The translations under genes and the position numbers were made by a program. A stretch of DNA of 64,000 nt. Origin: a virus. Within the stretch, counting starts at the first letter, position 1, and every line of letters begins with the position of its first letter. The stretch lies in IMG/VR virus record IMGVR_UViG_3300045988_122518, one strand, 5' to 3'. Below are positions 12,869 through 61,747 of the stretch, one piece after another. Under the pieces are notes generated by a model. That model had not been told where the DNA came from. It saw only the letters and a program-made list of their open reading frames with translations, and did no database searches.

Positions 12869-15800
12869 ATGAAAGATGAAAGGAATGTGCGAATGAGATC
12901 ATATTTCGGGATTCACAATCATACAATGTATTCAAATTTACGTCTATTAGATTGTATTAATAGACCACAAGCTCTTATTGACAAAGCGATAGAATTAGGC
13001 CTATCAGGAATAACTATTACAGACCATGAATGCCTTTCTGCCCATATGGAAGTAAATCAATATGCAAAAAAAATAAGAGAAGAAAATCCTGATTTTACTA
13101 TTGCTCTTGGTAATGAAATTTATCTCACTGATACAAGAGATAATGGACAAAAATATTATCACTTTATTCTTATTGCTAAAGATGCCATTGGACATAAAGC
13201 GTTAAGAGAATTAAGTTCTATTGCTTGGATTCATAGTTATGTTGATAGACGTATGGAACGAGTTCCTACTTTAAAAAGTGAACTTGAAATGGTAATGGAA
13301 CAATATAAAGGGCATGTTATAGCAACAACTGCTTGTATTGGTGGAGAACTTGGGAGTTGTATTTTACCAATGTTCCAAGCTGAATTAAACAAAGATATTG
13401 AAACTCAAACTAAATATTATAATCAAATAATTGATTATATCAATTTTTGTATTAAAGTATTTGGAAAAGATGATTTTTATCTTGAATGTGCGCCATCTAC
13501 TGATGCTGAGCAAATAATTGTAAATCATAAAATTTATCAAATCGCTAAGGCATTTGATTTAAAAATGGTAGTTGGAACAGATGCACATTATTTAACTAAA
13601 GAAGATAGACCCATTCATAAAGCATATCTTACTTCTAAACCAGGAGAAAGAGAAGTTGACGATTTTTATAAATTTACTTACTTAATGACAAGTGATGAAA
13701 TTTTTGAATTAATGGAACCTTATGCTAATGATTGGGATAAAGATAATAAAACAGGAAAAGAATTGATAAATTGGATTCTTGATAACACTCAAGAGATCCA
13801 AAATAAAATTTCTTTTTATTCATTAGAAAGAAAACAAATTATTCCAAAAGTTGAAGTAAAGGATTATAAGAAAGGATTCATTCCTTCAAACTGGTTCGAT
13901 AAATATCCAATTATCTGTTCTTTAATTAATAGCGACAATATTCAAGAACGATATTGGGTAAATGAATGTATTAAAGCTTTACAAGAAAAGCAACTTTATG
14001 ATAATAAAAATTATTTAGAGCGACTTGAAATTGAAGCTGATATTATAAAAGACATTGGTGAAAAATTAGATGATTGTCTTTTTGCTTATTTTAATACTTT
14101 CCAACATTATATTAATTTATTTTGGGAATGTGGAAGTATTGTAGGTCCTGGACGTGGTTCAGCGACTGGCTTTTTATCTAATTATCTTTTAGGCATTACT
14201 CAATTAGACCCAATTCGTTGGGGACTTCCTTATTGGAGATTTTTAAATAAGGAGCGCGCGGAGTTGCCTGATATTGATATTGACCTTGCCCCAAGTAAGC
14301 GTCCCGCAATTTTCAAAGCAATTAGAAAAGAACGCGGAGAATTGGGATTGGTTCAAGTTGCTACATTTGGAACTGAAGGCACTAAACAAAGTATTTTAAC
14401 TGCTTGCCGTGGATATAGAAGTGAAGAATTTCCAGAAGGAATTGATGTTGATAATGCTCAATATATGTCTTCATTAATTCCTCAAGAGCGTGGATTTTTA
14501 TGGCCTATCCATGATGTTATTTATGGCAATGAGGAAAAAGATCGTAAACCCGTTCAAGCATTTATTCGAGAAGTAAATCAATATCCTGGTCTTTTGGATA
14601 TTATTGTATATATTGAAGGAATGGTTAATAAACGTTCTTCTCATGCTTCTGGCGTTATTTTATATGGCGACGATCCATTTGATACCGCATCATTTATGAG
14701 AACTCCTAGTGGAGATATGATTACTTGTTGGGATCTCCATAAGGCGGAAGCTGCTGGAGACACAAAATATGACTTCCTTGTAACTGAAGCTTCTGACAAA
14801 ATTATTACTTGTTATCAATTACTTTTAAAAGATAAACAAATTCCAGAATTATCTTTACGAGAATTTTATAATAAATATATTCATCCAGAAGTAATAGATA
14901 CAACTGATCAAGCAATTTGGGACCACCTCGCCGCCGGTGATGTATTAGATGTATTCCAATTTTCTACGGGAGTTGGTTTGGCAATTGCGAAACGCCTTAA
15001 ACCCCAAGACCCTATGGAAATGACGGCGGCCAATGCTATGATGCGTCTTATGTCTGAAAAAGGTAAAGAATCACAGCAAGATAGATATTACCGCATTCAA
15101 CATTCAGGTATTAAAGTATTTGATGATGAAATGAAAGCTCAGCGTCTTCCGCAAGAATTAATTGATAAGATGCATAAGCATTGTGATAAATATTATGGAT
15201 GTTGTCCTATCCAAGAGCAAATGATGGAAATCCTTATGGATGTAGCTCATTTTACTCTTGGTGAAGCTAATACTGCGCGTAAGATTGTTGCTAAAAAGCA
15301 AATGGCTAAAATTCCACAACTGAGAGAGCAAGTATTTAGTAAATTTGATAATGAAAAATCTGCTGAATACTTTTGGGAAATCGCAGTTGCTCCTCAATTA
15401 GGGTATGCATTTAGTCTTAATCATTCTCTTCCCTATTCATTTGTAGCAATTCAAATGATTTACTTAGTAATTCATTTTAATCCTATTTATTGGGATACTG
15501 CTTGCTTAATTGTTAATAGTGGTTCCCTTGAAGATAATAGTGAAGAAGAGATTGTCGATATTTATGCTCCTGAAGGCGATGATTTAGCTAATGGAGCAAC
15601 ATTTGAAGATCTTCCTGACAAAAGTGGCAAAATCCGCAAAACCGCGGCTACTGATTATGGAAAAATTGCCAAGGCTATTAGTGACATTCAAAAAGCAGGA
15701 ATTGAAGTAGGTCTTCCTGATATTAATAAATCTAAATTTGGATTTGCCCCTGATATTGAAAATAATAAAATCCTTTTTGGACTAAAAGGTATGCTAAATG

Positions 15801-16882
15801 TTGGTGATGAATTAGTTAATACAATCATTGCCAATCGTCCTTATTCAAATCCTAAAGAATTTTTATACCGTATTAAGCCAGGTAAACAAGCTATGATTTC
15901 TCTTATTAAAGGCGGAGCTTTTGATAATATGATGGATAGAAAAGAATTAATGATTTGGTATATTTGGGAAACTTGCGACAAAAAGAAAAGAATTACTCTT
16001 CAAAATATGGGCGGACTTATGAAGTATGATCTTCTTCCAGAAGAAAATGAAAATCAAATTATGGCTCGCCGTATTTATGAATTTAATAGATATTTAAAAG
16101 CAATTTGTAAAACTACAAAAAATAATGGTTTATATCAACTTGATGAACGAGCTATTAATTTCTTAGTAGAAATTGGAGAAGATAATAATATTCAATTTGA
16201 TGGAACTAATTATTCTTTAAGTGAAAATATTTGGAATGGTATATACCAAAAGTGGATGGATATATTTCGCACTTGGATTGCTAATAACAAAGATGAAATT
16301 TTGAATAATCTGAATATAAAAATATTTAAAGATGATTGGGATAAATATGCTAATAAAAATAATTTATCCGCTTGGGAAATGGAAGTTCTTTGTTATTATT
16401 ATCATACTCATGAATTAAATAATATTAACAATGATAAATACGGATTCGTAGATTTCTTTAAGCTTCCAGAAGACCCAATAATTGATAGAAGTTTTACTAA
16501 AGGAAATCACACTATTCATATTTATAAATTGTTTAAAATTTGCGGAACTTGTATAGCAAAAAATAAAACTAAAAGCACTGTAACTATCCTTACTACTACT
16601 GGTCCTGTAGAAGTAAAATTTAGAAAAGAATATTTTAGTTTGTTTGATAAACAAATTTCAGAGCGCGGTGCAGATGGAACCAAACATATTGTTGAAAAAT
16701 CTTGGTTTAATCGCGGAAATATGATTGTAGTCTCTGGAATCCGCAATGGAGATAATTTCATGTCAAAAAAATATGCTTCTTCTGGAGGGCATCAATTATA
16801 TAAAATTGATGAAATTTTATCCAATGGCGATTTAGTTTTAAAAGATGCTCGTTATCAAGGAGGAATTGAAGAAGATGTATAA
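12869..16882 (+). CDS. dnaE: DnaE-type DNA polymerase III alpha subunit (PHP domain plus polymerase core), 1337 aa with no TAG
   Basis: N-terminal PHP motif GIHNHTMYSNLRLLDCI ... ITDHECLS, then GSATGFLSNYLLGITQLDP and ELPDIDIDL catalytic-region motifs typical of Pol III alpha. Confidence 0.85.
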   Translation: MKDERNVRMRSYFGIHNHTMYSNLRLLDCINRPQALIDKAIELGLSGITITDHECLSAHMEVNQYAKKIREENPDFTIALGNEIYLTDTRDNGQKYYHFILIAKDAIGHKALRELSSIAWIHSYVDRRMERVPTLKSELEMVMEQYKGHVIATTACIGGELGSCILPMFQAELNKDIETQTKYYNQIIDYINFCIKVFGKDDFYLECAPSTDAEQIIVNHKIYQIAKAFDLKMVVGTDAHYLTKEDRPIHKAYLTSKPGEREVDDFYKFTYLMTSDEIFELMEPYANDWDKDNKTGKELINWILDNTQEIQNKISFYSLERKQIIPKVEVKDYKKGFIPSNWFDKYPIICSLINSDNIQERYWVNECIKALQEKQLYDNKNYLERLEIEADIIKDIGEKLDDCLFAYFNTFQHYINLFWECGSIVGPGRGSATGFLSNYLLGITQLDPIRWGLPYWRFLNKERAELPDIDIDLAPSKRPAIFKAIRKERGELGLVQVATFGTEGTKQSILTACRGYRSEEFPEGIDVDNAQYMSSLIPQERGFLWPIHDVIYGNEEKDRKPVQAFIREVNQYPGLLDIIVYIEGMVNKRSSHASGVILYGDDPFDTASFMRTPSGDMITCWDLHKAEAAGDTKYDFLVTEASDKIITCYQLLLKDKQIPELSLREFYNKYIHPEVIDTTDQAIWDHLAAGDVLDVFQFSTGVGLAIAKRLKPQDPMEMTAANAMMRLMSEKGKESQQDRYYRIQHSGIKVFDDEMKAQRLPQELIDKMHKHCDKYYGCCPIQEQMMEILMDVAHFTLGEANTARKIVAKKQMAKIPQLREQVFSKFDNEKSAEYFWEIAVAPQLGYAFSLNHSLPYSFVAIQMIYLVIHFNPIYWDTACLIVNSGSLEDNSEEEIVDIYAPEGDDLANGATFEDLPDKSGKIRKTAATDYGKIAKAISDIQKAGIEVGLPDINKSKFGFAPDIENNKILFGLKGMLNVGDELVNTIIANRPYSNPKEFLYRIKPGKQAMISLIKGGAFDNMMDRKELMIWYIWETCDKKKRITLQNMGGLMKYDLLPEENENQIMARRIYEFNRYLKAICKTTKNNGLYQLDERAINFLVEIGEDNNIQFDGTNYSLSENIWNGIYQKWMDIFRTWIANNKDEILNNLNIKIFKDDWDKYANKNNLSAWEMEVLCYYYHTHELNNINNDKYGFVDFFKLPEDPIIDRSFTKGNHTIHIYKLFKICGTCIAKNKTKSTVTILTTTGPVEVKFRKEYFSLFDKQISERGADGTKHIVEKSWFNRGNMIVVSGIRNGDNFMSKKYASSGGHQLYKIDEILSNGDLVLKDARYQGGIEEDV

Positions 16883-17449
16883 AATTATTGCATTATGTGG
16901 AAAATCTGGTGCGGGAAAAGATAGCCTAATGATGGCTACCTTTTCCCATTTAGAGGAATATTTAAATCCTATTATAAGCCACACTACACGCCCGAAGCGT
17001 GAAAAAGAAATAGCAGACAAAAATTATCATTTTGTTTCAGATGACTAGTTTTTAACTTTAATTGATGAAAATAAAATGTTAGAAACCACTTCTTTTAATA
17101 ATTGGTATTATGGCACAAGTATTGACAGTTTGTCTGATAGTAAAGTTAATATTGGTGTTTTTAATCCCGAAGGAATTATAAGTCTTCTTAAAGATGATAG
17201 AATTGAATTGGAGATATATTATATCACCGCTAAAGGAAAGACACGCTTAATTAGGCAATTAAATAGAGAAAAAAATCCTGATGTAAATGAAATCATTAGA
17301 AGATATACTACTGATGAAATTCAATTTTAGCTAATGAATGATATTAAGTGCAATATTGTGACAAATGAAACATTAGAAGATTATAATAATATTGTTAATC
17401 TTTTAACTCAAAAAGTTAAGCAATGGGCGGAAATGGACCAAGATAAATA
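16875..17449 (+). CDS. gmk: guanylate kinase-like nucleoside monophosphate kinase with two in-frame TAG (17046, 17328)
   Basis: P-loop ALCGKSGAGKDSL, then ISHTTRPKREKE ... YHFVSDD-TAG-F ... YGTS. The TAG falls where Gmk homologues have Glu/Gln (S-x-E/Q-E-F). Tracked fragments 16845-17048 and 17076-17330 are in the same frame. ATG 16875 overlaps the polymerase end. Confidence 0.65.
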
Positions 17450-17469
17450 ATTATTTACTAACAAAACCT

Positions 17470-17507
17470 AAATATAGTAGAATATTCTAAAAGAACTACT
17501 ATATTTA
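17470..17507 (+). terminator. hairpin (11-bp stem AAATATAGTAG / CTACTATATTT), possible terminator/attenuator between gmk and nrdD
   Basis: Perfect inverted repeat with a 16-nt loop; the 3' tail is only modestly U-rich. Confidence 0.3.
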
Positions 17508-17525
17508 GTTTGGAGGCAAAAAAAA

Positions 17526-19847
17526 TTGTATATTATTAAACGTGATGGAAGTATAACTCAATTTAATAAAAAGAAAATTATTAATGCAATAAATAAAGCA
17601 TTTATTGAAGTTGATGGTAAACTATATGAAGATGATACCGCAAAAGATATTGCGGAAGACATTGAAAGACAAATAAATCATTTCCCTGATGGAAGTGTCG
17701 GAGTAGAAGATCTTCAAGATTGGATTGAAGATTATTTAATGCGTTCTGAGCGACGCGATGTTGCTCGTGCTTATATCAGATATAGATATAAAAAAGAAGT
17801 TGCTCGTAATAAAAAAGATGATTTTATTAAAGCAATTCGTGAAAAGCTCGATGGTAATAACGTAAAAAATCAAAATGCTAATGTTGATGAACATTCATTC
17901 GGTGGTCGTATAGGTGAAGCAAGTGGTGTTGTCACCAAACAACTTGCACTTGATTACTTACTTTCCCCTATGGCTCGTAAGAATCATATTGATAATATGA
18001 TATATACTCATGACCTTGATTCTTATTATGTTGGTTCTCATAATTGTTTAAGTATTCCCTTTGATAATTTACTCGCTAATGGATTTAATACTCGTCAAGC
18101 TGATGTTCGTCCTGCGGGTTCAATTAATACAGCATTTCAATTAATTGCTGTTATTTTTCAAATCCAAAGTCTTTGTTAGTTTGGCGGAGTTAGTGCCACT
18201 CACTTAGATTGGACTATGGTTCCTTATGTAAGAAAATCTTTTTGGAAGCATTTTAAAGATGGAGTTAAATACTTATATAGTCTTAATGATTATAACTATA
18301 TTGTTAATAATGTATTAGGAGATTTAGACACATCAAAAATGCCTATTCAATCATACCGAAATGCCACAACAAAAACTGAAGAAGAAAATGCAGTTAGTTA
18401 TTTATTAGCTTTTGAAACTTATAAAAAGGCTTATGATTATGCCTATGATATGACTGTCCGTGAGACTCATCAAGCTGCAGAAGGTCTTTACCATAATCTT
18501 AATACTTTACAGTCTCGTAGCGGTAACCAATTACCATTTACGAGTATTAATTATGGCACTTGCGCCTTACCAGAAGGTAGAATGGTAACCAAAGCATTAT
18601 TAGATGTCTCCATTGAAGGTCTTGGTAAATTGCATAAAACTTCAATTTTCCCTTGTGGAATTTTCCAATGTATGAAAGGTGTTAACCGCAAACCTGGTGA
18701 TCTTAACTATGATTTATATAGATTAGCATTAGAAAGCACCGCGAGACGCCTTTATCCTAATTATGCAAATGTTGATTGGTCTGGTAATGCGGGATATGAT
18801 ATTAATGATCCTCGCACTTATTTTTCTACAATGGGATGTAGAACTGCAAATGGTTGGGATATTAATGGATTCGGTCAACTTAAAGATGGACGTGGAAATA
18901 TTTGTCCTGTTACTATTATCCTTCCTACTCTTGCGATGATGGCCGTTACTCTAAATGAAAATGATAATTGGGATGATTATAAGTCATTGTCTCAAGAAGA
19001 ACGGACTAAAATTGGCGTAGAACGATTTATGTCTTTACTCGATAGAAAAATCAATGAAGCACGTATTCAATTAATGGAGCGTTTTGAGTGGATTTGTTCT
19101 CAAGATCCTGGATCCGCGAGATTTATGTATGAAAATAATGTTATGGCAGGTTATATTCCAGAAGAAGGAATTCGTTCTGCTCTTAAACATGGAACTCTTG
19201 CTATTGGTCAGTTAGGTTTGGCTGAAACTCTTCAAATTCTTATCGGTAAAGATCACACCACTTCAGAAGGAATGGAATTAGCTAAACGAATTGAACAATT
19301 ATTTAAAGATAGATGTGCCGAGTATAAAGAAAAATATAAATTAAATTTTGGTGTATACTATACCCCAGCAGAAAATCTTTGTTATACAGCTATGACGAAA
19401 TTTAAAGAAAGGTATGGAATTATCCCTAATGTTAGTGATAAAGAGTTTTTTACCAATAGTATTCACGTTCCAGTGTGGAAAGAAATGAGTCCATTTGAAA
19501 AAATTGATATTGAATCTGAATTAACTGGTTATTCATCCGCAGGATGTATTACTTATGTTGAACTTGATTCTACTGTAAAACATAATATTGATGCTCTTGA
19601 AACTATCGTTAATTATGCGATGGATCACGATATTCCTTATTTCGCAGTAAATGTTCCTAATGACACTTGCCTTGAATGTGGTTATTGTGATGAATTTAAT
19701 GATTCTTGCCCTGAGTGCGGAAGCCACAATATTCAACAATTACGTCGTGTGACCGGTTATCTTACAGGTAATTATAAAACTGCTTTTAACTGGGGTAAAC
19801 AAAAAGAAGTTGAAGCAAGAGTAAAGCATACAGGAATATTAGAATGA
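17526..19847 (+). CDS. nrdD: anaerobic (class III) ribonucleoside-triphosphate reductase NrdD, 773 aa with one in-frame TAG (18177-18179)
   Basis: N-terminal ATP-cone (IIKRDGSITQFNKKKIINAINKAF); C-terminal zinc ribbon CLECGYC ... CPECGS and glycyl-radical motif RRVTGYL. Tracked ORFs 17526-18179 and 18216-19847 share a frame and are joined through TAG. Confidence 0.85.
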
Positions 19848-19859
19848 TGAGGTTATAGA

Positions 19860-20537
19860 ATGAATTATTCTAAAAAACCTTTAAAAAAGCATTAGAAAAT
19901 AAAACATAAATTAGAAAAAGCTACTGAAATATTAAATAAAAAAATTGATTCGGAATTAGAAGCAATTATAAAAACAATATTTTCTTGGATAGCTAATGAT
20001 GAAAAAATTAATACAGAAGAACATCAAACTATTCTAATAAATTTATTTTATAAGGCTTTAGAAAATCTTTATTCAGAGATTAATATAGAATTAGGGAAAA
20101 TTTACACAAAAGTAGCTCCATTTAATTTGCAGAATATCGCAAATTTAACTTTTCAAGAAGATGGAAAAACATTAGATGAGCGAATTATTAAATATTTAGA
20201 TGGCTTAGAAGAAAAAAGATTATCTGGTGATTTTCCAGATAATTTAAAAAGTTTTAGCGTTAATATGTATTCTCGTCTATTAAATAATGAAAGTAAATAT
20301 TTATTCACTTATTTAATGGAAATGAAAATAAGACCCGTAGCTTCAATACTCGTAATTGAATCAGGGACTTGCGGTGATCTATGCAGTGAATGGGATGGAG
20401 AGTATCCAGCAGGAGAAGATATTCCTCTTCCTCCTTACCATACTAATTGTTAGTGTTCTGCTTATTATATTGAAACTGATGATGAAGATGACGTTAATGA
20501 TTTAGATTTAGAAGTGGAGGAAATAAAGGATATATGA
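19860..20537 (+). CDS. hypothetical protein (two in-frame TAG: 19893, 20451)
   Basis: ATG 19860 is in frame with tracked ORF 20127-20453 and ends at TGA 20535-20537. Confidence 0.4.
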
Positions 20538-21028
20538 AATATGCAGGAATTATAAAGAATGATTTGGCGGCGGCACCCGGAGTATGTGTATCATTTTTTA
20601 CACAAGGGTGTCCGCACCATTGTGAAGGATGTCAAAACCCCGAAACGTGGGATTTTAATGGTGGTAAAGAATTTACTAATAAAGTATTAGATGAATTAAT
20701 TACTGCTATTAATGCAAATAATGTTGAGCGTAATCTTTGTATTATGGGTGGAGAACCTCTCTGCCCTGAAAATGAATTTTTAACTAATTTAGTTATTACT
20801 GAAATTAAAAAAATATATCCAAACATTAAAATATATATATGGACTGGATATATTTATGATGATTTAAAGAATAGTAATAATATTAGAATTAAGAATATAT
20901 TAAAAACCGCTGATTACCTAATTGATGGACCATATATCCAAAAGGAAAGAGATATCACTCTGCCTTTGCGCGGTTCCCGCAATTAGAACATTATTAATTT
21001 AAAACTTGACAAAAAAGAAAATTTGTGA
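20534..21028 (+). CDS. nrdG: anaerobic RNR activating radical-SAM protein NrdG; the nominal end at TAG 20984 extends to TGA 21026-21028 if TAG is sense
   Basis: CxxxCxxC-type cluster motif GCPHHCEGCQN near the N-terminus; size typical for NrdG; sits directly downstream of nrdD. Confidence 0.75.
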
Positions 21029-21040
21029 TATAATTTTTCT
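21007..21040 (+). promoter_or_regulatory. near-consensus sigma70 promoter (TTGACA, 17 nt, TGATATAAT)
   Basis: Consensus -35, 17-nt spacer and extended -10, immediately upstream of the 21068 gene. Confidence 0.5.
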
Positions 21041-21067
21041 ATGAAATAGATAGGAGATTATATAACA

Positions 21068-21601
21068 ATGAATGTTTTTTATACTAATACGATGGGAGAA
21101 TTATATAATTCTCCTCGTAAATTCAAAGAAGGAACTATTGCCATTTCTGGCGAGGATCAGAAACAATATTATTACACTGGAAATGAATGGGTAATGATAG
21201 GAACTACTACTAATAATTTGTCAGATAATTCTACTACATTTCAAACTGGAATGAATTTATATGATTTTAATAAAAATATTATGATACAAATGGATCCAAT
21301 TAATGAAGAAGAATTAAATAAATTAATGAGTAGTATTAACGAAATAAGTGAATATGGAATGTATTATATGTTATTATGTAAAGATTATAATTATTATACC
21401 ATTTTTCACAAAAATATTCCTCCAATTATTTCAACTGGTTCTTTGGCGAGTATGGTAATTATACTTTGTCAAGAATTGGGAAGTATTGTTGGTTGGGAAA
21501 AAAATAATAATGGCGCTATTGAGATTTGGATAAATATTGATAATGAATCTTATTGTTTTTATTTATTCCAATATGATGCTGGTATTGTGGAGTGTAATTA
21601 A
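21068..21601 (+). CDS. hypothetical protein
   Basis: Intact 177-aa ORF with RBS GGAG. Confidence 0.4.
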   Translation: MNVFYTNTMGELYNSPRKFKEGTIAISGEDQKQYYYTGNEWVMIGTTTNNLSDNSTTFQTGMNLYDFNKNIMIQMDPINEEELNKLMSSINEISEYGMYYMLLCKDYNYYTIFHKNIPPIISTGSLASMVIILCQELGSIVGWEKNNNGAIEIWINIDNESYCFYLFQYDAGIVECN

Positions 21602-21862
21602 ATGATTGTTTGTAATATTAATTTATTTTCAATGGAACAAAATGTTTTTAAAACTTATGATGATGGAATGGCAGTAACTATTGGAACTTGTAGTATTTCT
21701 GATCTTCCAAATGTTTTAGTAGCATCTTGTTATAAGAACGATACTGATACTATACGTTTATATGGCATTGAAGATTTTATTAATGAATTAATTCCAAAAA
21801 TTTATGAAAGTAATAGTTTAAATTATTCCAATAGAAAAGAAATTAAAGTTGAGGTAGGTTAA
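21602..21862 (+). CDS. hypothetical protein
   Basis: Intact 86-aa ORF, translationally coupled to the upstream gene. Confidence 0.35.
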   Translation: MIVCNINLFSMEQNVFKTYDDGMAVTIGTCSISDLPNVLVASCYKNDTDTIRLYGIEDFINELIPKIYESNSLNYSNRKEIKVEVG

Positions 21863-22110
21863 TGAATAAGTATCTTGTAAGTGCTACGGAAGTTTATCGC
21901 GTAGATAATGAGGAAAGTGCGGCCGCGCTTATTGATGAGGCTAAGGCTGAAACTAAATATATTTTAGCTAAGTATAGTTCAGTAAAGAAAGAAAAAAAGG
22001 CTAAGGGTGAAATTGTCGATGAATGGTATCAAGTCACTCTTGTTAAGAAATTCAATGATGAAAAAGATCCTATTAGTAATATTGATGTAAATTATGAGGT
22101 AAACTTTTAA
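21862..22110 (+). CDS. hypothetical protein
   Basis: Intact 82-aa ORF whose start overlaps the upstream stop. Confidence 0.35.
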   Translation: MNKYLVSATEVYRVDNEESAAALIDEAKAETKYILAKYSSVKKEKKAKGEIVDEWYQVTLVKKFNDEKDPISNIDVNYEVNF

Positions 22111-49807: not shown

Positions 49808-49811
49808 TTTA

Positions 49812-49985: not shown

Positions 49986-50007
49986 TTTCCTTTTTCTCCT
50001 TTTTAAT

Positions 50008-53000: not shown

Positions 53001-53325
53001 TATTAAAAGGATTGACAAAATTATATGGTTTATTTTCATTTTTATCTGTCTTTTTACCGACAATAAATTTAGTGCTATTATAGTCTCCTTCTGGAATCTA
53101 TACATACACTTTATCGCCTTTGTTATAAGTGGTTATTTGGGAATAAGCATAAAATTCCGCATAAGATTCATTTTTGACCTTATACTTACCAATAAGTTTA
53201 TCAGTCGCATCAATAATAGTACATTCAATGGTACTATCAAATTTAACTTTGTCAACACTTGAATTAGCAATAATACTCATTGCTTGACATAAACTTTCTT
53301 GAATATTTAGTGCGTTATCAGCCAA
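50008..53325 (-). CDS. large tail protein directly downstream of the tape measure gene (1105 aa, TTG start, Ala-rich linker, many TAG); Dit/Tal-like by position
   Basis: RBS AAAGGAGGG then TTG 53325; tracked ORFs 53098, 52363, 51577 and 50008 all share frame 1; the 52852-53097 junction was traced; ends at TAA 50008-50010. Confidence 0.5.
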
Positions 53326-53395
53326 AATAATCCCTCCTTTTACTCATTACTCTATAATTTTCTAAAAAATTAATTAGTTTTATTCAATATAATTA

Positions 53396-53440
53396 CCCAA
53401 AAAGAAAAAGGGTGAAGCCTATAAGACTTCACCCTTAATT
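53396..53440 (-). terminator. terminator hairpin after the tape measure gene (AAGGGTGAAG / CTTCACCCTT)
   Basis: 10-bp stem then a U-rich tract on the - strand immediately after TAA 53441. Confidence 0.5.
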
Positions 53441-56400
53441 TTATTTTCTATTGGCATATTGAGAAGCTACATTAACTAATGTATTAAATGCTTCTTGAAT
53501 TTCGTATCTATCAGTAGCGTTCGGGAAACTAGCTTCAATTCTAACATTCTATTCTAATGTTCCATCTTGAGAACTAACAGTAAATCCAGAAGAAGAAAGG
53601 GTAGAGATTTGTTGACTATTGAAATCTAATTGTTTAGCGATCTATCTAACTAATTGGATAGAAGCTAACATATTTTCCGTATCATCAGCATTAAGAACTA
53701 ATTCTTTCTAATGTAAGAACGCTAATTTTCCGCTATCATTCCAAGTGCCAGTATAACCACCACTTCTAAATCCGACTAAATCTCTCCATTCCTAATCAGT
53801 AAGCTAAGCAAAACTATATTTACCATTAGGAAGTTTACCAGAGATTTTTCCTTCACTGAGTAATTTATAATATGCATCAACTCGAGCCGTAGTGTCTTCA
53901 TTGATACTACCGCCATTAGCAATTTTTTCTTCGCGGTTTCTTTTATATTGATTATATTGCGCGGAACCATAAGCCACAGTGCCCATCATGGCCGCCCAGT
54001 CAGTATCTCCACCACTATCGCTACCAAATCCACTTTGAGAGCGTAATGTCGCTTGAATAGCGTTCAAAAGCTCTTCATAAGCTCTAATAGTATCAAGTAA
54101 TTGCTGACGATGTTGTGCCCAAGCTTCAGTAGCACTACGGACAGAACTTAACTCACCTTCAAGAGCAGGAATAACTCTATTAGATACTTCTTGATAAAGT
54201 TTATTACTTTCATCAGTAACATCTTTAACTTTCTATTGAGTATCTTTTAAATCATCACCAACAATTTTACTAATTTCATCCATACTGTCTTGCCATTCTT
54301 TAAATGTATCATTGATAATATTAGTGTTTTCAGTAATGGTATCTTTCCAACTATTACTATTATCTTTGATAATATCAAAAGAATTTACCCAAGCGTCTTG
54401 AACAACTCTACTATCCTCTTCTTGTGCTTTTGCATAAAGATTTCCAGCAGTAGTAATTAAATCAGTATATTGTTGAATTACTAAAGCACGTTCTTGTTGA
54501 TATGTGGTCTCACGGTAAACAGCATCTTCCGCGGCTTTCTAATCAAGTTCCGCGAGCTTCTCAGCCAACTCTTTCTCATATTGAAGTTTTTGTTGACCAT
54601 ATTTATTTGTCGCATCAAGACGAATATTATATAAATCATTTTCCGCGTCCGCCAAAGCCTATTGCGCGTCATTTACTTTCTCTTGGTCTGCGGTATACAC
54701 ATAACCAAAATTACCCTCATTATCACGTTGTAATCTAACTGTGGATTTTGCGTTTTGAGCTTCCTCTAATGCAATTTGCGCTTCAAGCACTTTATATTTA
54801 GCCTAAGCAATTTCTAATTCTAATTGACTTAATTTATCTTTATCTCTTAACTACTCAATTTCTTTAGTAAATTGCTGGTATCTATTTTTAGCTGCTTGAT
54901 TATTTGTCTTATCAATAGCCTAATTAACATTATTAAGTAGTTTATTCATTTCATAAATCTAATTAGTTTTTGTTAAGTATTCATCTTGATAAGAAGACAT
55001 TCTATCCAAAGCATCATTTAAAGCATCCCAACCGGAAATATTAAAGTTATTACCATTAATACTTACTTTAGTAGTGCTTAATTGCTTATTCATTTCATCC
55101 GCAGCTTGTTCCATCTTTGTAGTAAGAATTTCTTTTAATGCTTCACCATATTCTTCCGCTTTAGAAAGCATATCTTCTTCCGCTTCATCGAACGCGGCTA
55201 ATATAGCATCATAATTCTTTTGAAGCACTTCGCGTTCAGCCTCATCAGTTGAACTGGCTAAAGCTGCGGCCGCTGCATCGCGCTCACGCTTCAAGCTTTC
55301 GTACCATTGTTTAGAAGTATCAAAATTATTTTTCTTAGTCTAAGCAGTTCCATTTAAAACTGATAAAACTTTATCATAATCTTTATCTTTACCTAACAAA
55401 GTAATAATAGAACGATAATGATCTAATACACTAGTTAAATGCTCCATATGATTTGTATATTTAGACAATTCATCATTTGCTAAATCTATAGTATTACCAT
55501 AATATTCAAGCATTTCTTTATCTAAATCCTACAAAGCATTTAAATTATCTAATGTATTATCATATACATCTTGTAAGCCTTCGATATAATTTTCTTGAGA
55601 AATTTCTCCATTAGAATAAGCATTGTTTAACTAACCATAGAAATTTTCATAAGTTCCTAATTGGCTAATTACTGGATCAAATTGACCTTGTAAATATCCA
55701 AGAGCTTCAGCAGCTTTATAAATATTATCACTTAATTTATCGAAATAATATTCTAATTTCTTAGTATCATTTTCATCTAATTGAATTTTTACTTCAACTT
55801 CATAAATTAATTTTTCATAATGTAATTCTTGAACTGTATTCTTTAAATCAATTAAAGCTTTTTCTTGCTCTTTTAATTTATCTAAAGTTTCTTCATACTA
55901 CTCTAAAGCTTCTCTCTATTTATCAGTAGTAGCTTTATTATATAAAGCAGTATAATTATCGATTTCTAATGTTTCCTTATTAAAAATTGCCTATCCGCCG
56001 AACTGTTTTTGAACTTCCTACCGATCTACAGCTACATTCGCTAAAATTAAATTATACAACTAAGACTATAAATCAATCAATTTTTTATTAGCTTCAATTT
56101 CTTGATTTATATTATCAATTTTAGCTTTTCCATAAAGTTTATCTTTGCTATCCGCTAATTTATCTAAAAGTTTTTGATAATATTGAATTTCACGAGTTAT
56201 TTCATGATAGCGCTCAGCGACTTTTTGCAATTCTTTAGCAGTATTAGATGCATTTTTTCCAAGATTTTTAAAAGCATTATTAGTCTTTAAAACTGATGCT
56301 CCAACAGAAGCAATCATCCCGCGGATGTCATTTGCCTATGCCATAGTAGAAGCATAAAGGGAATTATAAGTAGCCGCAATTTTAGCCCAAGTTTCTTTGG

Positions 56401-59400
56401 AAGTATTTTGTCCATCTGCTAATGCTTTATCTAACGTCTTCTATGCATCTTCTAAGACTTTTGCTTCAGCACTAACACCTGTTGACCCTTTATAATCAAC
56501 CTAGAATTTTCCTTCTAGTTTTCCCTTTCCATTTCCGCTAACTGCTTTTTTCATATTATTTATAGCAGTATTAGCAAAATCTACAGAATTCTATGCTGCT
56601 GATTTAAAAGCTTTCTACCAATTTTCCGCTACAACTTTAGCATTATCTTTTGAAGAATTGGCAACAATTTCTTGATTATCAGCCTATGTATCAGCTGTAT
56701 CTTTACTATTTTTTGATTCTAATTCAGCTAAATTACCAGAGATACTACTCCTAATAGCCGCAGATTCCTAAGCACTTAAATTTTCAGCTGTGGCAAGAAT
56801 TTCTGCCAAATGAGCTATATTTTTATAATTTACAGCTTTCGCTTCTAATAAAGTAGCCTAATTATTTAACTATTCGACAGTAGCTTCAGCGTCAGCAGCA
56901 ATTTCTGCTTTAGCTGCATCAAAGCAATCTTTAACAACACTTTCTTTTAATTTAGCTGATCCATCTTTAGCTATTGTCATTCCTTCAATAATACCAGGAA
57001 AAACATTATTTAATTCTCGAATGTCATCAGCAGCAACACTATAATTAGGACCAATTTTAGAAGCCTAAGTATTCATATCTTTAATAGCATTTGTAATACT
57101 ATTAAATTCTTGTTCTGCTTGGCCATGAACTTCAACATTTATACTATATTGCTAATCTGCTAATTCATCCATAGAATCTTTAAATTTACTAAGATCAGCC
57201 TCTACAGTAACATTTACTCCTTCTTTTTTATTTATGATCTATAAATTTTGTCGAAGTTCTTTAAGAAGTTTATCTGAATCTTTATTTAAATCATTTAATT
57301 TGATTTCAGCCATTTTATCTTGGACTTGTTCTAAAGCTTCATAATAAGTTTGACTACCAGCATTCCAAGTATGAGATAATTCTAAAGCCGCAGATTCTAA
57401 TTCAGGATATTGTTTTTTTATTATTTCTAATTGCTATATCAAGTTAGAATAATCTTCATTAGAAGAAATATTTTCTTGAGTAACATCTCCACTCTATAAT
57501 CCACTAATTAAATTAGAAGCGTTTTTTTCGCCCGTTTTGGCAGCGTCAACAATTCTCTAATTATAATTATCAGGATTATAATTATTTAAACTATTTTCGA
57601 ACCCTTCTAGCCAAGCTTCTCCATCATTTAATCCTAAAGATTCCATTTGTTCTTTAGTTAATCCTAAAGCTTCTGCAAATCCATCTGATCCAAGTTGTTT
57701 TAATTCTTCAACCTAATCAGGAGATAATTCAGATAAAATAGAAGTTAAATCTAAACCACTTTCGGCATTTGCTAGACTATCAAGAATTGCCTATGAAAAA
57801 TTAGCACCAAATGTTTTATCAAAAAATTCTGTTTTCTTAAGAAGGTTTTCAATAGATTTATCAAATTCTTCTAAATTATAAGAATCATTATTCTCTAAAG
57901 AATTAAAAATTTCATCTGTTGCTCTTTTCCTAGCGATCTATTCTCGCATATAGGAATCATTTTCGTCTTCAAAAAGGACAGTTCCGTTTATATTCTTTAA
58001 AGTTCCTTTTCCAGTCCCACCACTATAAATATATTGACCTAACTCTTCTTCTGTTAATCCTAAAACTTCTCTTGCATAAGCTTTTGCTAATTCTTTATCA
58101 TTATCTATATTTAAATCAGCATTATTATTATGAGCTGGCAAAGTTAAATTAGTAAAATCTTTACCACTATTTTTAAGAATTTGACGCTAATATCCTGCTT
58201 CAGCAGCATAAATATAATCCTATAAAACAGTATTATCAGTAATCTTTTCAACTCGTCCAGAATTATTTTGAATATTTTTACTTTTTAATATTTCATTACT
58301 ATAATAATCAGTAGCTTTAGTAGCTTCAGTAATACTATCTGCTAAATTAAAGAAAGCATCACTACTTTCCATAATTTTATCAATGCTCTCAGAATAAAAC
58401 GTTGTATTTTCTTCTAATTTTTGTCTTAAAATTTCATCCTAACTCTTATGAGTTTTTATACTTTCTTTCTATGCTTCAATAGCAAATTGAGTAATTAATT
58501 CAATTTCACCATTTGTAATTGTGCCAGAATTTCCTTCTCGCTTTACTTTACCAATATTTCTACTTAAATCAGTATTAGAAACTTCTTTTTTAGCAGATTC
58601 AACATCAATTTTAGCACTCTACTAAAGAACTTTTATATTATTTGCAGTATCATTAATCTTCTTTTGAGCTTCTTCAATAGCTCCTGTATCAAAAACAATT
58701 AAGCCATCTTTAATTTCATATTTATCCCATAATCTATAAGTTTCAATTAGTTCTTTAGCTTTCTCATTAGCTGATTCTAAAGAATCTGTATATTCCTATG
58801 TTTTTTTATCTAACCCATTAAGCGCTTCAACGGCTGTAGTATAATCATTAGCTTTATTTTTAAATTCTTCAATTGATGAAGTTAATTCATTGTATTTTTC
58901 AGTTAATTTTTCTACTGTTTCACTAGCAGATTTTAAATTATTATCTGCTTTATTATATTCATCTATAGCAGATTTAATAATAAACACTAAAGCACCAATA
59001 GCGGCTCCAACCAAAGCTATTGACCCTAAAGATTTAGTAAATACCTTAATTGCTAATTTAAAAGCTGCTACTCCTTTTAAAGTAACTAAATTTAACGCTT
59101 CTTGTTCTAAGGCCTATCCATTTAATCCAACAGCAGTCATTAAAGAACTAGATAACATTCCCATATTAGCAATTGAAGTTTTATTTAAAGAATTCATTAA
59201 TAAGGGTAAGGCAATAGATAAAGCAGTTACGGTTGAAAGTAATTTATCTCCAATACCAATTTCATCATTATTCCATGTATCTACAATTCCTTTTATAGAA
59301 GTTATTGCCATAGCAATACTGCTTAATCCCTAAGCAAAAGAAGCTACTCCTGCTTCTGCTGAAGGTAATACTCCACTAAAAGAATTTATAGTATTAATAT

Positions 59401-61747
59401 ATTCTTGATTAGCATCAGTGGCTCTATTAGTAGCCTATACATTATTAAGAATTTCAATAACCATAGAAGAATATGAATCTTGTAATGAATTAATAGTATT
59501 TTCAATCTGTTCTTCAGTCATCTAAGTGCCTTCTAAAGTACTTCGTAACTATGAAAATGCTGAATTGGCTTCATTTTCTGTAATAGTAATTAAACTATTT
59601 AACTAATTTCTAAATTCTTCAGTTGTATTATAAGTCCCATTAAGAATATTATCTAAACTATTAAAAGACATCCCTAACTAAGAAGTTTTATCACAAACCT
59701 ATTGGAGTTTCTCTTTTAATTCATCTAAATTTTCGATATCTCTTGTAGCACTTTGGAAATCATCTAAAACACTAGATAAAACAAAATTCTGTCTAGTAGA
59801 ATTTACCTAAGATCTATAATCCTAAACATTCCCTTGTTTCATTCTAACTTGCGTTTCAAGCTATCTTTCTAATTGACGAGTTATTTTTTGCTATTGTTCT
59901 AAATCTTGAGCACTCTTAATTGCTCGTTCTCCAAGTTTTTCATTAATATCTATAATAAATTTAGCCTAAGCCTATTCTTCTTCAGTCAACTGACTCCCCT
60001 AAGCAATTAATTCTCTTTGTTTCTAAATTAAAACATCTTGTAAATTAGCCTACTAAGTATAAATATCACTACGAGTAGAATAATCAGGTCCCTAATCAAC
60101 ATTATCTGCCATAATAGATCTCAATTTATTATTAGCTTCTTGACGCATTTTTACAATTTCATTTATTCCATTTTTAGAAGAAATTTTAATATTATACATC
60201 ATCCGTTGAATAGATTTTGTAATATCATTCCCGAATACTTTAAATCCAATAGTTCCAATAATAGATAGAACTCCAGGCAGTCCTCCTAATGCTTTAATTA
60301 GCTAGCTAATAACATTTAATAATTTTGCAAAAATATTAGTTAATTGAATAAAAGCCTTATCATCCAATAGCTAATCATAAATAGTTTCCAAAGAAGCAGT
60401 AACTCTATTTTTAGCAGCTTCCCAAGATTCTGCGTAAACGTCAGCTTGCTCCTGAAGAGATCCATCAGCATCCTAAGCTTTAGTAAGATTTTCTTTATAA
60501 TAATCAAAATGATCCATCAAAGCAATTAATTGAGTATATTGACGAACACCCGCAACCTATTGTGCTAAAGCTACTTGCTAATCTTTATCAATACTCTGCC
60601 ATTTATTACCCATTTCTTCGATAATATTATCCATATCTTTTAATTCACCGTTAGAATCTTTAATATTAATTCCAACTTTTTCAAGAGCCTATGAGTATTG
60701 ATTTAATGTAGTACCATCTTCTAAAGTTTCACCAAGTTTTAAACCTTGAATACGAGCAAAGATCGTTTTTAAAGCAGTACCTACAACATCTTCACTTTGA
60801 CGAGTAGTAGCAGTAATAGTGGCTAAAGCTGCTGCTGCATTATCAAAACTTAAACCAATTGTACTAGCAACCGCTGCAAATTTTTCAAGGCCACCAGCAA
60901 TCTCATCAGAACTAGAAGCGGTATCCGCACCTAAACGCACCATAGCATCAGCATAATGCTCTAATGACTAGCTTCCATCATAAAAATTATTCCAGACAGC
61001 AGTCATTTGATCTGAAACAATTTCAGCACTTTCACGAGCCACATTTGCCATTTTTATAGTGATGTCAGTACGTTCTTTTACCTATTCATCATTTAAACCC
61101 TACTGATAATAAATTAAGGCTGCGTCAGTATATTTAGTAGTTGTAGTGCTTAACTCTTTAGCAGCTTTATTTGCCTAAATTGCAAATTTTGCCATCTAAT
61201 CTGCATTTTGTCCAGTAACGATACGAATATTATTTAAAGATTCATTTAAATCCTAAGCATAATAATAGGCAGACTATATTGCTCCCATAAAGCCATGTAA
61301 AATACTTGAAGATATTTGCCAACGAGCAGTATTAGCTAAAGTAGTTCCAAATTCTTTTAATAAGGCATTACTTCTTTTTAAGGGCAACTCTGCTGTAGAA
61401 ATAGATTTTGCTAAATTAGCGAAAGCCTATTCGCCTTCTCTACCTAAAATTTGTAGCTAATCTCCATACTCGCTAATAGTTCTTCCACTTTTTTTTAATG
61501 ATTGATTAAATTTTCCTAAATCAATAGTCCCCGCCTCTGTTCGGCAAGTGACTAACATCCCTTGTAATTCACTAACATAAGGCAAGGCTTTTTGAATTTC
61601 TTGCGATAAACTTAAATTACCATAGCTGTTAACATTTTTTGTTAAATTATTAAGCTATTCTTGTAAATCTTTCAACTATTGTTGAGCCTATTTAGCATCA
61701 GCAGTAAATTGTAAATTAACCTAATAACTATTTAATTGTTTAGCCAT
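53441..61747 (-). CDS. tail tape measure protein, 2768 aa, recoded with dozens of in-frame TAG
   Basis: RBS AAAGGAG then ATG 61747. Nine tracked ORFs between 53804 and 60943 share frame 2. The C-terminal 120 codons were traced to TAA 53441-53443 and contain the TMP-type motif FRSGGYTGTWNDSGKLAFLH.KELVLNADDTENM. Long coiled-coil-rich sequence throughout. Confidence 0.7.

What the first reader, a model, noticed from the sequence alone, without database searches (positions are those of the whole stretch)
12869..61747. Strong early-versus-late asymmetry in TAG usage
The 4-kb DnaE-type polymerase, primase, Sak4-like ATPase, SSB candidate, dUTPase and several small early genes contain no in-frame TAG. 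Other early genes carry 1-6. In the late module one gene traced in full (46901-49807) has about 15 TAGs in 968 codons, and the tape measure gene has dozens. This fits the published hypothesis that stop-codon recoding acts as a timer: late and lytic proteins can only be made once a suppressor tRNA or release-factor change is in place, while core replication proteins are translatable under the host code.
Basis: partly seen in the sequence, partly recalled or inferred. Interest (0 to 1): 0.8.

Follow-up and report, generated by a model that had tools for sequence, protein, structure and literature searches.

The report
Amber codons skewed to late genes
This is part of a common human-gut phage of about 190 kb that reads the TAG stop codon as glutamine and uses it about four times more often in tail and other late genes than in replication genes, a real pattern that was already described for other recoded phages.

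Summary
Under the standard code, long ORFs cover 61% of the window. With TAG read as sense they cover 95%. The + strand replication module (49-23680) has 32 in-frame TAG in 7,273 codons, or 12% of Gln codons. The - strand tail/lysis module (23715-63409) has 211 in 12,480 codons, or 37% (gene-label permutation p about 0.001). DnaE, primase, Sak4, the YorF-like gene and dUTPase have none. The tape measure gene has 84.

TAG means Gln. It aligns with conserved Gln in standard-code relatives, and strain polymorphisms are TAG<->CAA/CAG.

Gene-specific TAG content is conserved across diverged lineages, so it is selected. Species-level relatives carry a tRNA-Gln-like tRNA(CUA) about 50 kb upstream of the window, on the early strand.

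The simple early/late timer reading is only partly right:
- The replicative helicase DnaB, RecJ, Dda and NrdD/G need read-through.
- The holin has one TAG.
- A 553-aa late gene has none.
- The probable capsid and tail-tube genes just outside the window are TAG-free in eight or nine lineages.

Avoidance of TAG in abundant proteins therefore acts alongside timing.

The phenomenon is published (Yutin 2021, Borges 2021/22, Babkin 2023). This is a new member of a known kind.

The parts
49..23680 (+). Replication and nucleotide-metabolism ('early/middle') module. 27 genes, 32 in-frame TAG in 7,273 codons, 12% of Gln codons.
   Evidence: PHROG annotation; counts
12869..16882 (+). DnaE-type (Pol III alpha) DNA polymerase. 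1337 codons, 50 Gln codons, no TAG. Also TAG-free in TAG-recoded relatives at 77% and 64% identity.
   Evidence: phrog_405, E = 2.6e-218
5592..6695 (+). DNA primase. 0 TAG among 13 Gln codons.
   Evidence: phrog_47
2219..3214 (+). Sak4-like ATPase. 0 TAG among 14 Gln codons.
   Evidence: phrog_124, E = 1e-50
1124..2071 (+). Its function is not confirmed. 0 TAG among 9 Gln codons.
   Evidence: phrog_2367; PF27337 YorF on identical genes
22110..22628 (+). dUTPase. 0 TAG.
   Evidence: phrog_135
3873..5405 (+). DnaB-like replicative helicase with 2 TAG (codons 23 and 59). Codon 23 aligns with an invariant Gln in eight relatives that do not recode TAG.
   Evidence: phrog_19
7366..9114 (+). RecJ-like exonuclease. 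6 TAG among 30 Gln codons, the most TAG codons of any early gene.
   Evidence: phrog_2484, E = 7e-154
17739..21028 (+). NrdD (1 TAG), a 225-aa gene (2 TAG) and NrdG (1 TAG). The NrdD and NrdG TAGs sit at Gln positions invariant in relatives.
23715..63409 (-). Tail, lysis and structural ('late') module. 22 genes, 211 in-frame TAG in 12,480 codons, 37% of Gln codons. It converges on the early module near position 23700.
53441..61747 (-). Tape measure protein. 2768 codons, 84 TAG (42% of Gln codons).
   Evidence: phrog_4211, E = 6e-71. The gene in L054 has 80 TAG.
50008..53280 (-). 1090-aa minor tail protein. 24 TAG among 37 Gln codons (65%).
46916..49807 (-). 13 TAG.
31815..39533 (-). Giant 2572-aa protein. 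30 TAG among 83 Gln codons.
39652..41313 (-). 553-aa fibre-like late gene with a TTG start. 0 TAG among 15 Gln codons, an exception inside the late module.
27651..28061 (-). Holin. Only 1 TAG (codon 87) among 12 Gln codons.
   Evidence: phrog_13712, E = 7e-38
62450..63409 (-). 319-aa gene upstream of the tape measure gene, chaperone-like by position. 13 TAG among 22 Gln codons.

Best explanation
The window comes from a human-gut tailed phage of about 190 kb that infects a standard-code host, probably a member of the Bacillota, and decodes TAG as glutamine.

The decoder is most likely a phage tRNA(CUA) derived from tRNA-Gln. In species-level relatives this tRNA lies about 50 kb upstream of the window, on the same strand as the early genes.

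TAG and CAA/CAG interchange freely over evolutionary time. Selection then sets a gene-specific TAG load in three tiers.
1. TAG is purged from genes that must be made before or independently of suppression: DnaE, primase, Sak4, the YorF-like gene, dUTPase, gyrase, ligase and almost all genes further upstream on the early arm.
2. TAG is also purged from the most abundant virion proteins.
3. TAG rises to 30-65% of Gln codons in low-copy tail proteins, chaperone-like genes, a putative endolysin and homing endonucleases.

The yield of full-length protein falls as (read-through efficiency)^n, where n is the number of TAG codons. The number of TAG codons therefore sets how complete the code switch must be before a protein appears. 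This gives a graded translational gate rather than a binary early/late switch.

Shown here: the recoding, the Gln meaning, the asymmetry, its conservation across lineages, and the suppressor tRNA in relatives.

Inferred: the timing, the dependence on suppressor level, the expression-level effect, and the host.
For: - Recoding: ORF coverage is 0.61 under code 11 and 0.95 with TAG as sense.
- Asymmetry: TAG makes up 12% of Gln codons in the early module and 37% in the late module, permutation p about 0.001.
- Gln meaning from relatives: TAG aligns with Gln in 55 of 128 comparisons with relatives that do not recode TAG. Gln is invariant at DnaB codon 23, Dda 213, NrdD 147, NrdG 151 and RecJ 566.
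- Gln meaning from strains: among near-identical strains TAG alternates almost only with CAA/CAG. In the tape measure gene 24 of 29 variants are CAA/CAG, and in guanylate kinase 12 of 12.
- Standard-code host: sister lineages with the same gene order use code 11 or code 4.
- Recurrence: the early-below-late skew appears in every TAG-recoded relative examined, 0.05-0.20 against 0.21-0.42.
- Conserved TAG-free genes: DnaE, primase, Sak4 and dUTPase stay TAG-free at 64-77% identity while RecJ, Dda and others gain and lose TAG. GyrB, ligase and the SPFH protein are TAG-free in about ten loci, and GyrA carries at most one TAG there. GIY-YIG endonucleases are TAG-rich in all of them.
- Upstream early region: 2 TAG against 83 CAA/CAG codons.
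- Suppressor: tRNA(CUA) is present in 5 of 5 species-level contigs that cover the spot, L380 and L423-L426. It scores 56 bits against the Rfam tRNA model. It resembles tRNA-Gln(CUG).
- Lysin: a putative endolysin on the early strand has 9 TAG among 25 Gln codons.
- Abundant virion proteins: the probable capsid and tail-tube genes are TAG-free in eight or nine lineages.
- Literature: the same pattern and the timer hypothesis are published.
Against: - No temporal expression data exist. 'Early' and 'late' rest on gene function and strand.
- DnaB, RecJ, Dda, NrdD/G and RuvC carry TAG, so replication cannot be fully independent of suppression.
- The holin has one TAG.
- Genes next to the suppressor tRNA carry some TAG.
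- The suppressor was not seen on a contig proven identical to the window. L366 starts about 80 nt after the neighbouring tRNA-Tyr.
- About 40 kb of the genome was never examined.
- No RF2, RF1 inhibitor or Gln-tRNA synthetase gene was found.
- Capsid and tail-tube identities rest on gene order and weak matches.
Confidence: 0.6

Rival explanations
1. Pure translation-cost model. TAG is simply a poor Gln codon, because it competes with RF1 and the suppressor is limited. It is removed in proportion to how much protein is needed and how costly truncation is, and it drifts upward in weakly selected genes. There is no timing function.
For: - The probable capsid and tail-tube genes and a 553-aa late gene are TAG-free inside the late operon, conserved in eight or nine lineages.
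- The distribution is graded rather than binary, and both modules are heterogeneous.
- Replication genes such as DnaB and RecJ carry TAG.
- The holin has 1 TAG.
- TAG is below a crude composition-based expectation in both modules.
Against: - DnaE, primase, gyrase, ligase and dozens of small upstream genes are not expected to be highly expressed, yet they are TAG-free across lineages.
- A lysin and homing endonucleases embedded among TAG-free early genes are TAG-rich.
- The tape measure gene, with 84 TAG, still has to be made in full.
Confidence: 0.25
2. Mosaic history. The replication genes were imported recently from standard-code relatives and have not yet accumulated TAG.
For: The clade mixes codes 11, 15 and 4 and is visibly mosaic.
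Against: - DnaE is TAG-free in three TAG-recoded lineages separated by 23-36% amino-acid divergence, with 22-34 conserved Gln codons and no TAG, while neighbouring genes turn TAG over.
- The nearest standard-code DnaE is only about 59% identical.
Confidence: 0.05
3. Composition or annotation artefact. The skew reflects Gln-rich coiled coils, strand composition or wrongly delimited genes.
For: - The tape measure protein is Gln-rich (7.3% Gln).
- Out-of-frame TAG is 1.3-1.6 times higher in the late module.
- Some early TAGs may lie 5' of the true start codons.
Against: - The skew persists per Gln codon, without the tape measure gene and without DnaE.
- GC skew relative to the coding strand is the same in both modules.
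- Correcting start codons would lower the early count further.
Confidence: 0.03
4. The host itself reads TAG as an amino acid, so the asymmetry carries no regulatory meaning.
For: The host was not identified. The genome scan returned only phage contigs binned into inconsistent MAG taxa.
Against: - Syntenic sister phages never use in-frame TAG, or recode TGA instead.
- The phage clade encodes its own tRNA(CUA).
- There is strong, conserved TAG avoidance in many genes.
Confidence: 0.02

Closest known systems
Stop-codon-recoded gut phages of Borges et al. 2021/2022 (crAss-like, Lak, Jade, Sapphire, Agate, Garnet, Amethyst, Topaz) and their 'recoding regulates late and lytic genes' hypothesis
   Same: - TAG is read as Gln in a low-GC gut phage with a standard-code host.
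- Structural genes use the recoded codon heavily, and replication genes use it variably or not at all.
- The phage encodes a suppressor tRNA.
- Related clade members use codes 11, 15 and 4.
- A homing endonuclease in an early region is preferentially recoded.
   Different: - Clade assignment could not be tested.
- The holin here is not TAG-biased.
- The probable capsid and tail-tube genes are conserved TAG-free.
- No RF2 or aminoacyl-tRNA synthetase 'code-change module' was found.
crAss-like phages with alternative codes (Yutin et al. 2021, PMC7886860; Peters et al. 2022, PMC9523058)
   Same: - Reassignment is seen mostly in the parts of the genome with late genes.
- Suppressors arise by point mutation of a tRNA anticodon.
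- The code switches at short phylogenetic distance.
- TAG as Gln was confirmed by proteomics in those phages.
   Different: This is an unrelated phage lineage. It has a DnaE polymerase, a siphovirus-like tail with a 2768-aa tape measure protein, and affinities to phages of Bacillota rather than to Crassvirales of Bacteroidota.
phAss-1 / proposed Phassvirus group ('Caudoviricetes code 15 clade'; Babkin et al. 2023, PMC10607447)
   Same: - Human-gut phage with TAG read as Gln.
- Large tRNA array that includes tRNA-Sup(CUA), and no dedicated synthetase.
- TAG occurs mostly in virion genes and in some DNA-processing genes.
- The homologous capsid-like gene is 50% identical and is also intact under code 11.
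- Related to Enterococcus phage EF1-like phages.
   Different: Identity is only about 50% at the best-conserved protein. The genome is about 190 kb against 136 kb, and the gene order differs. It is not a member of that genus.

Membership tests
Genetic code 15 (TAG read as Gln) phage | Genes fragmented under code 11 become full length when TAG is read as sense | tested here: met
   ORF coverage is 0.61 under code 11 and 0.95 with TAG as sense. TGA as sense gives 0.65. The full-length tape measure, RecJ and DnaB proteins match PHROG families end to end.
Genetic code 15 (TAG read as Gln) phage | In-frame TAG corresponds to glutamine | tested here: met
   Gln is the commonest aligned residue (55 of 128) and is invariant at five positions in relatives that do not recode TAG. 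Strain-level variants of TAG are almost all CAA/CAG. No proteomic confirmation.
Genetic code 15 (TAG read as Gln) phage | Phage-encoded suppressor tRNA with anticodon CUA | tested here: inconclusive
   None in the window. None in about 150 kb of the nearly identical contig 132576 lineage. Present in all five species-level contigs that cover the site about 50 kb upstream (L380, L423-L426) and in more distant relatives. The matching stretch of the window's own lineage could not be fetched.
Genetic code 15 (TAG read as Gln) phage | Host uses the standard code | not testable with these tools
   The host was not identified. This is inferred from code-11 and code-4 sister phages and from conserved TAG avoidance.
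Recoding as a late-gene or lysis timer (Borges model) | Structural and late genes are enriched in the recoded codon relative to replication genes | tested here: met
   TAG makes up 37% of Gln codons in the late module and 12% in the early module, p about 0.001. The pattern recurs in all TAG-recoded relatives.
Recoding as a late-gene or lysis timer (Borges model) | Lysis genes are among the most strongly recoded | tested here: inconclusive
   The holin has 1 TAG among 12 Gln codons. The putative endolysin outside the window has 9 among 25, which is high for its surroundings but not extreme.
Recoding as a late-gene or lysis timer (Borges model) | All proteins needed before the code switch are free of the recoded codon | tested here: not met
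   DnaB helicase (2 TAG), RecJ (6), Dda (1), NrdD (1), NrdG (1) and RuvC-like (3) contain TAG at conserved positions. They may be middle genes.
Recoding as a late-gene or lysis timer (Borges model) | TAG-containing genes are translated later than TAG-free genes | not testable with these tools
   Needs time-resolved expression data from an infected host.
Proposed Phassvirus genus (phAss-1) | Nucleotide identity and gene order at genus level | tested here: not met
   No nucleotide-level match of DnaE to the phAss-1 record in the phage collection. The capsid-like protein is 50% identical. Genome size and tRNA-array context differ.

The most novel reading that the evidence does not exclude
The number of amber codons per gene may be a selected dosage-and-timing code.

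Read-through is incomplete and rises during infection, so each gene's TAG count sets both when its protein appears and how much full-length protein is made. Zero TAG would suit the replisome core and the hundreds-of-copies capsid and tail-tube proteins. Dozens of TAG would suit the few-copies tape measure and tail-tip proteins. High loads would suit lysins and selfish endonucleases wherever they sit in the genome.

On this reading the conserved TAG-free and TAG-rich neighbours within one late operon reflect control of virion stoichiometry, not only a lysis timer.
Probability: 0.2. Interest if true: 0.55.

Novelty: new member of a known kind. Interest (0 to 1): 0.3.

Why it matters
The finding adds a well-sampled, very common human-gut phage lineage to the phages that switch the genetic code during infection. 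One of its window-encoded proteins is listed in 411 blocks of the assembly index.

Its relatives use three different codes while keeping the same gene order. That makes the clade a good natural experiment for two questions: how stop-codon reassignment evolves, and what selects for or against the recoded codon gene by gene.

One observation qualifies the published timer hypothesis. Probable capsid and tail-tube genes stay TAG-free beside TAG-rich neighbours in eight or nine lineages, while a lysin and homing endonucleases are TAG-rich among TAG-free early genes. This could be tested with existing metagenomic data.

On the practical side, these genomes are mis-annotated, and even binned as 'Mollicutes' MAGs, unless code 15 is used.

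Tried and rejected
- **Search for the suppressor tRNA.** ARAGORN and Rfam found no tRNA in the window. I then walked along near-identical IMG/VR contigs, using all 8 viral scans and the single metagenome scan. No tRNA turned up across contig 132576 positions 32-163 kb. An eight-tRNA array without CUA appeared 31-40 kb upstream of the window. The CUA tRNA appeared only in L380 and in ENA contigs L423-L426, reached through a homologue search. The locus from the window's own lineage (L366) begins just past it.
- **Identity of the TAG-free 368-aa and 327-aa genes outside the window.** PHROG gave only 'unknown' or 'virion structural protein'. The Pfam copy gave nothing. The PDB sequence search gave nothing for the 368-aa protein and E = 0.1 to tail-tube proteins for the 327-aa one. 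AlphaFold on a shallow alignment failed with pLDDT 42, so no fold search was run. The capsid and tube labels therefore rest on gene order.
- **Host identification.** The GTDB genome scan returned only phage contigs binned into contradictory MAG taxa.
- **Code-change proteins.** No RF2 or Gln-tRNA synthetase was found among the annotated genes or in extra Pfam scans.
- **GC-rich block as hidden RNA genes.** I considered that the GC-rich block upstream of the late operon might hide tRNAs or a prophage junction. Rfam showed only a weak tmRNA-like hit of 16.8 bits. The block is conserved in all relatives and encodes small proteins.
- **'tRNA-Ser(GGA)' as a misread suppressor.** I considered that the 94-nt tRNA at the syntenic array position might be a misread suppressor. 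Its anticodon loop reads GGA unambiguously.
- **TAG as Ser.** I considered this because the CUA tRNAs are 90-91 nt long. It was rejected because the acceptor and D arms match tRNA-Gln(CUG) and TAG aligns with Gln.
- **Clade of Borges et al.** Assignment to a named clade could not be tested because no sequences are held.

Full report
**What the window is**

The window has 29.8% G+C. Genes lie on the + strand up to about position 23,700 and on the - strand from there to the end. GC skew follows the coding strand in both halves.

Stop-to-stop ORFs of at least 100 aa cover 61% of the window under the standard code. With TAG read as sense they cover 95%. With TGA read as sense they cover 65%. TAG is therefore a sense codon here.

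PHROG and Pfam searches identify the + strand block as a replication and nucleotide-metabolism module. It holds a MarR-like regulator, a YorF-like protein, Sak4-like ATPase, DnaB helicase, primase, RecJ-like exonuclease, Dda/PIF1 helicase, DnaE-type polymerase, guanylate kinase, NrdD/NrdG, dUTPase and a RuvC-like resolvase.

The - strand block is a tail and lysis module. It holds a holin, a 2572-aa giant protein, several tail proteins and a 2768-aa tape measure protein.

The window contains no tRNA and no Rfam family.

**Checking the observation**

I called genes with TAG as sense and counted in-frame TAG together with the two standard Gln codons. Two late genes were later corrected to TTG starts.

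- DnaE: 1337 codons, 50 Gln codons.
- Primase.
- Sak4-like ATPase.
- The YorF-like 'SSB candidate'.
- dUTPase.

Fifteen of the 27 early genes carry 1-6 TAG. The tape measure gene has 84 TAG.

| Module | TAG | Codons | TAG per 1000 codons | TAG share of Gln codons |
|---|---|---|---|---|
| Early | 32 | 7,273 | 4.4 | 12.3% |
| Late | 211 | 12,480 | 16.9 | 37.1% |

Shuffling gene labels gives p = 0.0016 per codon and 0.0006 per Gln codon. The result survives removal of the tape measure gene and of DnaE. The Fisher test on pooled counts gives 1e-14.

Out-of-frame TAG differs only 1.3-1.6-fold between the modules, so base composition is not the cause. Zero TAG among the 50 Gln codons of DnaE has P = 0.0014 even at the low early-module rate.

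The same TAG codons recur in independent assemblies of the same phage.

**What TAG encodes**

I aligned window proteins to relatives that do not recode TAG. TAG falls opposite Gln in 55 of 128 comparisons. Glu is next with 23.

Gln is invariant at DnaB codon 23, Dda 213, NrdD 147, NrdG 151 and RecJ 566.

Where TAG varies among near-identical strains, the alternative is almost always CAA or CAG. That holds for 24 of 29 variants in the tape measure gene and 12 of 12 in guanylate kinase. This is genetic code 15.

**The phage and its relatives**

One window protein is found unchanged in 411 index blocks. The contigs read that carry it reach up to 173 kb in human-gut assemblies. IMG/VR holds many contigs of 100-197 kb whose DnaE is 96-100% identical. 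One of them is circularly permuted through DnaE. No close relative exists among deposited phage genomes.

The nearest described group is phAss-1, in the 'Caudoviricetes code 15 clade'. Its capsid-like protein is 50% identical. The Enterococcus phage EF1 group is also related.

Within the clade, lineages with the same gene order use three codes:
- the standard code in both early and late regions;
- TAG as sense;
- TGA as sense.

So the host reads TAG as stop, and reassignment arose repeatedly.

**Is the asymmetry selected?**

In nine TAG-recoded relatives, loci centred on DnaE have TAG at 5-20% of Gln codons. Loci on the tape-measure side have 21-42%.

DnaE is TAG-free in lineages 77% and 64% identical to the window; one contig has a single TAG. 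It is TGA-free in the TGA-recoded lineages.

Codon-by-codon comparison shows that TAG and CAA/CAG replace each other at conserved Gln positions in RecJ, Dda, NrdG and others. Meanwhile the 22-34 conserved Gln codons of DnaE never become TAG, nor do those of primase, Sak4 and dUTPase.

Upstream of the window, GyrB, DNA ligase and an SPFH protein are TAG-free in about ten loci of differing divergence, and GyrA carries at most one TAG. A GIY-YIG homing endonuclease is TAG-rich in all of them.

Gene-specific TAG load is thus a conserved property. It is not a matter of time since acquisition.

**The suppressor**

I walked along near-identical contigs. No tRNA appeared across about 130 kb.

An array of five to eight tRNAs lies 31-40 kb upstream of the window on the early strand. 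It has no CUA anticodon.

About 11 kb further upstream lies a second cluster: Phe, Ser, Leu, His, Ile, Pro, Val, CUA, Tyr. It contains a 90-nt tRNA with anticodon CUA and is present in all five species-level contigs that cover the site:
- L380, which is 94-97% identical in nucleotides to contigs whose DnaE is 99-100% identical to the window;
- ENA contigs of 33-187 kb.

It scores 56 bits against the Rfam tRNA model. Its acceptor stem and D arm resemble tRNA-Gln(CUG) of relatives, with an added hairpin in the variable region. The mismatched 1-72 pair and G73 are features I know as tRNA-Gln identity elements in E. coli. That identity assignment rests on my own knowledge and was not tested here.

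More distant TAG-recoded relatives carry their own CUA tRNAs. Each resembles the tRNA-Gln(CUG) of its own genome.

The locus from the window's own lineage starts about 80 nt after the neighbouring tRNA-Tyr. The suppressor is therefore very likely in this phage but was not seen directly. No RF2 or Gln-tRNA synthetase gene was found.

**Where the simple early/late reading fails**

- Core replication functions are not all TAG-free. The DnaB helicase has TAG at codons 23 and 59. RecJ has six, and Dda, NrdD, NrdG and the RuvC-like gene have one to three.
- The holin has one TAG among 12 Gln codons.
- A 553-aa fibre-like late gene has none among 15.
- Just beyond the right edge of the window, five late-operon genes of a near-identical contig (L054) are TAG-free: 305, 368, 197, 193 and 327 aa. 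By gene order the 368-aa gene is the major capsid protein and the 327-aa gene the major tail protein. They are interleaved with genes at 40-65% TAG.
- The 368-aa, 327-aa and 305-aa genes are TAG-free in the TAG-recoded lineages where an ortholog was found, apart from one TAG each for the first two in L089. That covers eight, nine and four lineages respectively. The 197-aa gene is TAG-free in seven of eight, and the 193-aa gene only in L054. Their neighbours stay TAG-rich. Timing cannot separate genes of one operon. Avoidance of a costly codon in the most abundant proteins can.

Two observations point the other way:
- A two-domain peptidoglycan hydrolase lies on the early strand about 11 kb upstream of the window. 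It has 9 TAG among 25 Gln codons, surrounded by TAG-free genes.
- The region 20-30 kb upstream has 2 TAG against 83 CAA/CAG codons.

**Most likely mechanism**

A phage tRNA-Gln-derived amber suppressor converts TAG to Gln in the infected cell. Because yield falls as efficiency^n, a protein with 84 TAG needs near-complete reassignment: 99% per codon gives 43% full length, and 95% gives about 1%. A protein with two TAG appears at modest suppression.

Selection keeps TAG out of two groups. One is the set of genes needed before or regardless of suppression. The other is the most abundant virion proteins. It tolerates or favours TAG in low-copy tail proteins, lysis enzymes and selfish endonucleases. 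This is a graded gate rather than a two-state switch.

The recoding, its meaning, the asymmetry and its conservation are shown here. The temporal behaviour is inferred.

**Comparison with what is known**

- Reassignment confined mostly to late genes was reported for crAss-like phages.
- The hypothesis that recoding regulates late and lytic genes, with replication genes variably recoded and a homing endonuclease preferentially recoded, was set out by Borges et al..
- TAG as Gln was confirmed by proteomics in crAss-like phages.
- A related phage group with CUA suppressors has been described.

This window is a further, very common example in a different lineage. The conserved TAG-free abundant virion genes are a modest refinement of the published picture.

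**Verdict**

The finding is a new member of a known kind, with low to moderate interest.

Noticed in passing
L283 7500-20261 and L293 1-15000 (relatives; roughly 80-95 kb from the window along the circular genome): A block of at least 15 kb at 40-48% G+C in a genome that is otherwise 27-32% G+C. It encodes small, almost TAG-free genes, including an AbrB-like regulator, an exonuclease-like protein and a duplicated 124-aa gene. It diverges from the start of the late operon. Several assemblies break there.
   Followed up: partly
L380 1144-1233; L424 7133-7222; L326 3760-3850; L328 6116-6206: The amber suppressor tRNAs of this clade look like tRNA-Gln but are 90-91 nt long. They have an extra hairpin of about 16 nt in the variable region, kept with compensatory changes between lineages.
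   Followed up: partly
L315 4366-4494; L424 479-529; L328 5520-5868: A RAGATH-33 RNA match above the gathering score (126.8 bits) sits directly after tRNA-Leu(UAA). There is a sub-threshold twister-P1 ribozyme hit in the tRNA region of L424. One relative has a tmRNA gene inside its tRNA array.
   Followed up: no
L033, L044, L096, L097 (TGA as sense); L022, L050, L036, L074-L087 (standard code): The same phage clade contains standard-code, TAG-recoded and TGA-recoded lineages with conserved gene order. DnaE is also free of in-frame TGA in the TGA-recoded ones.
   Followed up: partly
L024, L031, L034, L036, L042, L045, L046, L052 (DnaE); L001 13142-15709 (DnaB): In several relatives DnaE is interrupted by insertions of 1-1.9 kb. 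In one near-identical contig DnaB is split around a GIY-YIG endonuclease gene. These are probably introns or inteins.
   Followed up: no
L182 956-3454 and L106 4470-5855: An 832-aa early protein has Major Vault Protein shoulder and Vault_3 domains (E = 1.6e-21). A separate 461-aa SPFH/Band-7 protein lies about 13 kb further along the early arm. Both are TAG-free. Vault-like domains are unusual in a phage.
   Followed up: no
L106 8095-9396 (about 11 kb upstream of window position 1): A putative endolysin (Phage_lysozyme2 plus Amidase_2) is encoded on the early strand. It has 9 TAG among 25 Gln codons, among TAG-free neighbours. GIY-YIG homing endonucleases are likewise TAG-rich in all lineages.
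   Followed up: partly
L054 1670-4391 and 7676-8659 (just beyond window position 64000): The probable major capsid (368 aa) and major tail (327 aa) genes, and the 305-aa gene beside them, have no TAG in the TAG-recoded lineages where orthologs were found, apart from one TAG each for the first two in L089. That covers eight, nine and four lineages respectively. The 197-aa gene is TAG-free in seven of eight. Adjacent genes are 40-65% TAG.
   Followed up: yes
L366 2372-11269; L423-L426 10300-19400: A run of fibre-like genes, some with the Mtd_N (major tropism determinant) domain, lies between the two tRNA clusters on the early strand. They carry few TAG and vary between strains.
   Followed up: no
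window 26890-27606 (+): A response-regulator receiver plus LytTR DNA-binding protein is encoded on the opposite strand, inside the late/lysis module.
   Followed up: no
window 39652-41313 and 41328-41909 (-): Two adjacent late genes appear to start with TTG. ATG-based gene calling truncates one of them and misses the other.
   Followed up: yes
L438 (CAMELE010000001.1, 163,874 bp): A contig with 99% identical terminase is deposited as part of an 'uncultured Mollicutes' MAG. Other relatives sit in MAGs of contradictory taxa. The phage is being mis-binned as a small low-GC bacterium.
   Followed up: no
window 9168-10007 (+): A second Phage_lysozyme2-domain protein, with an N-terminal signal-like segment, lies in the replication module and is TAG-free. 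This contrasts with the TAG-rich lysin upstream.
   Followed up: no
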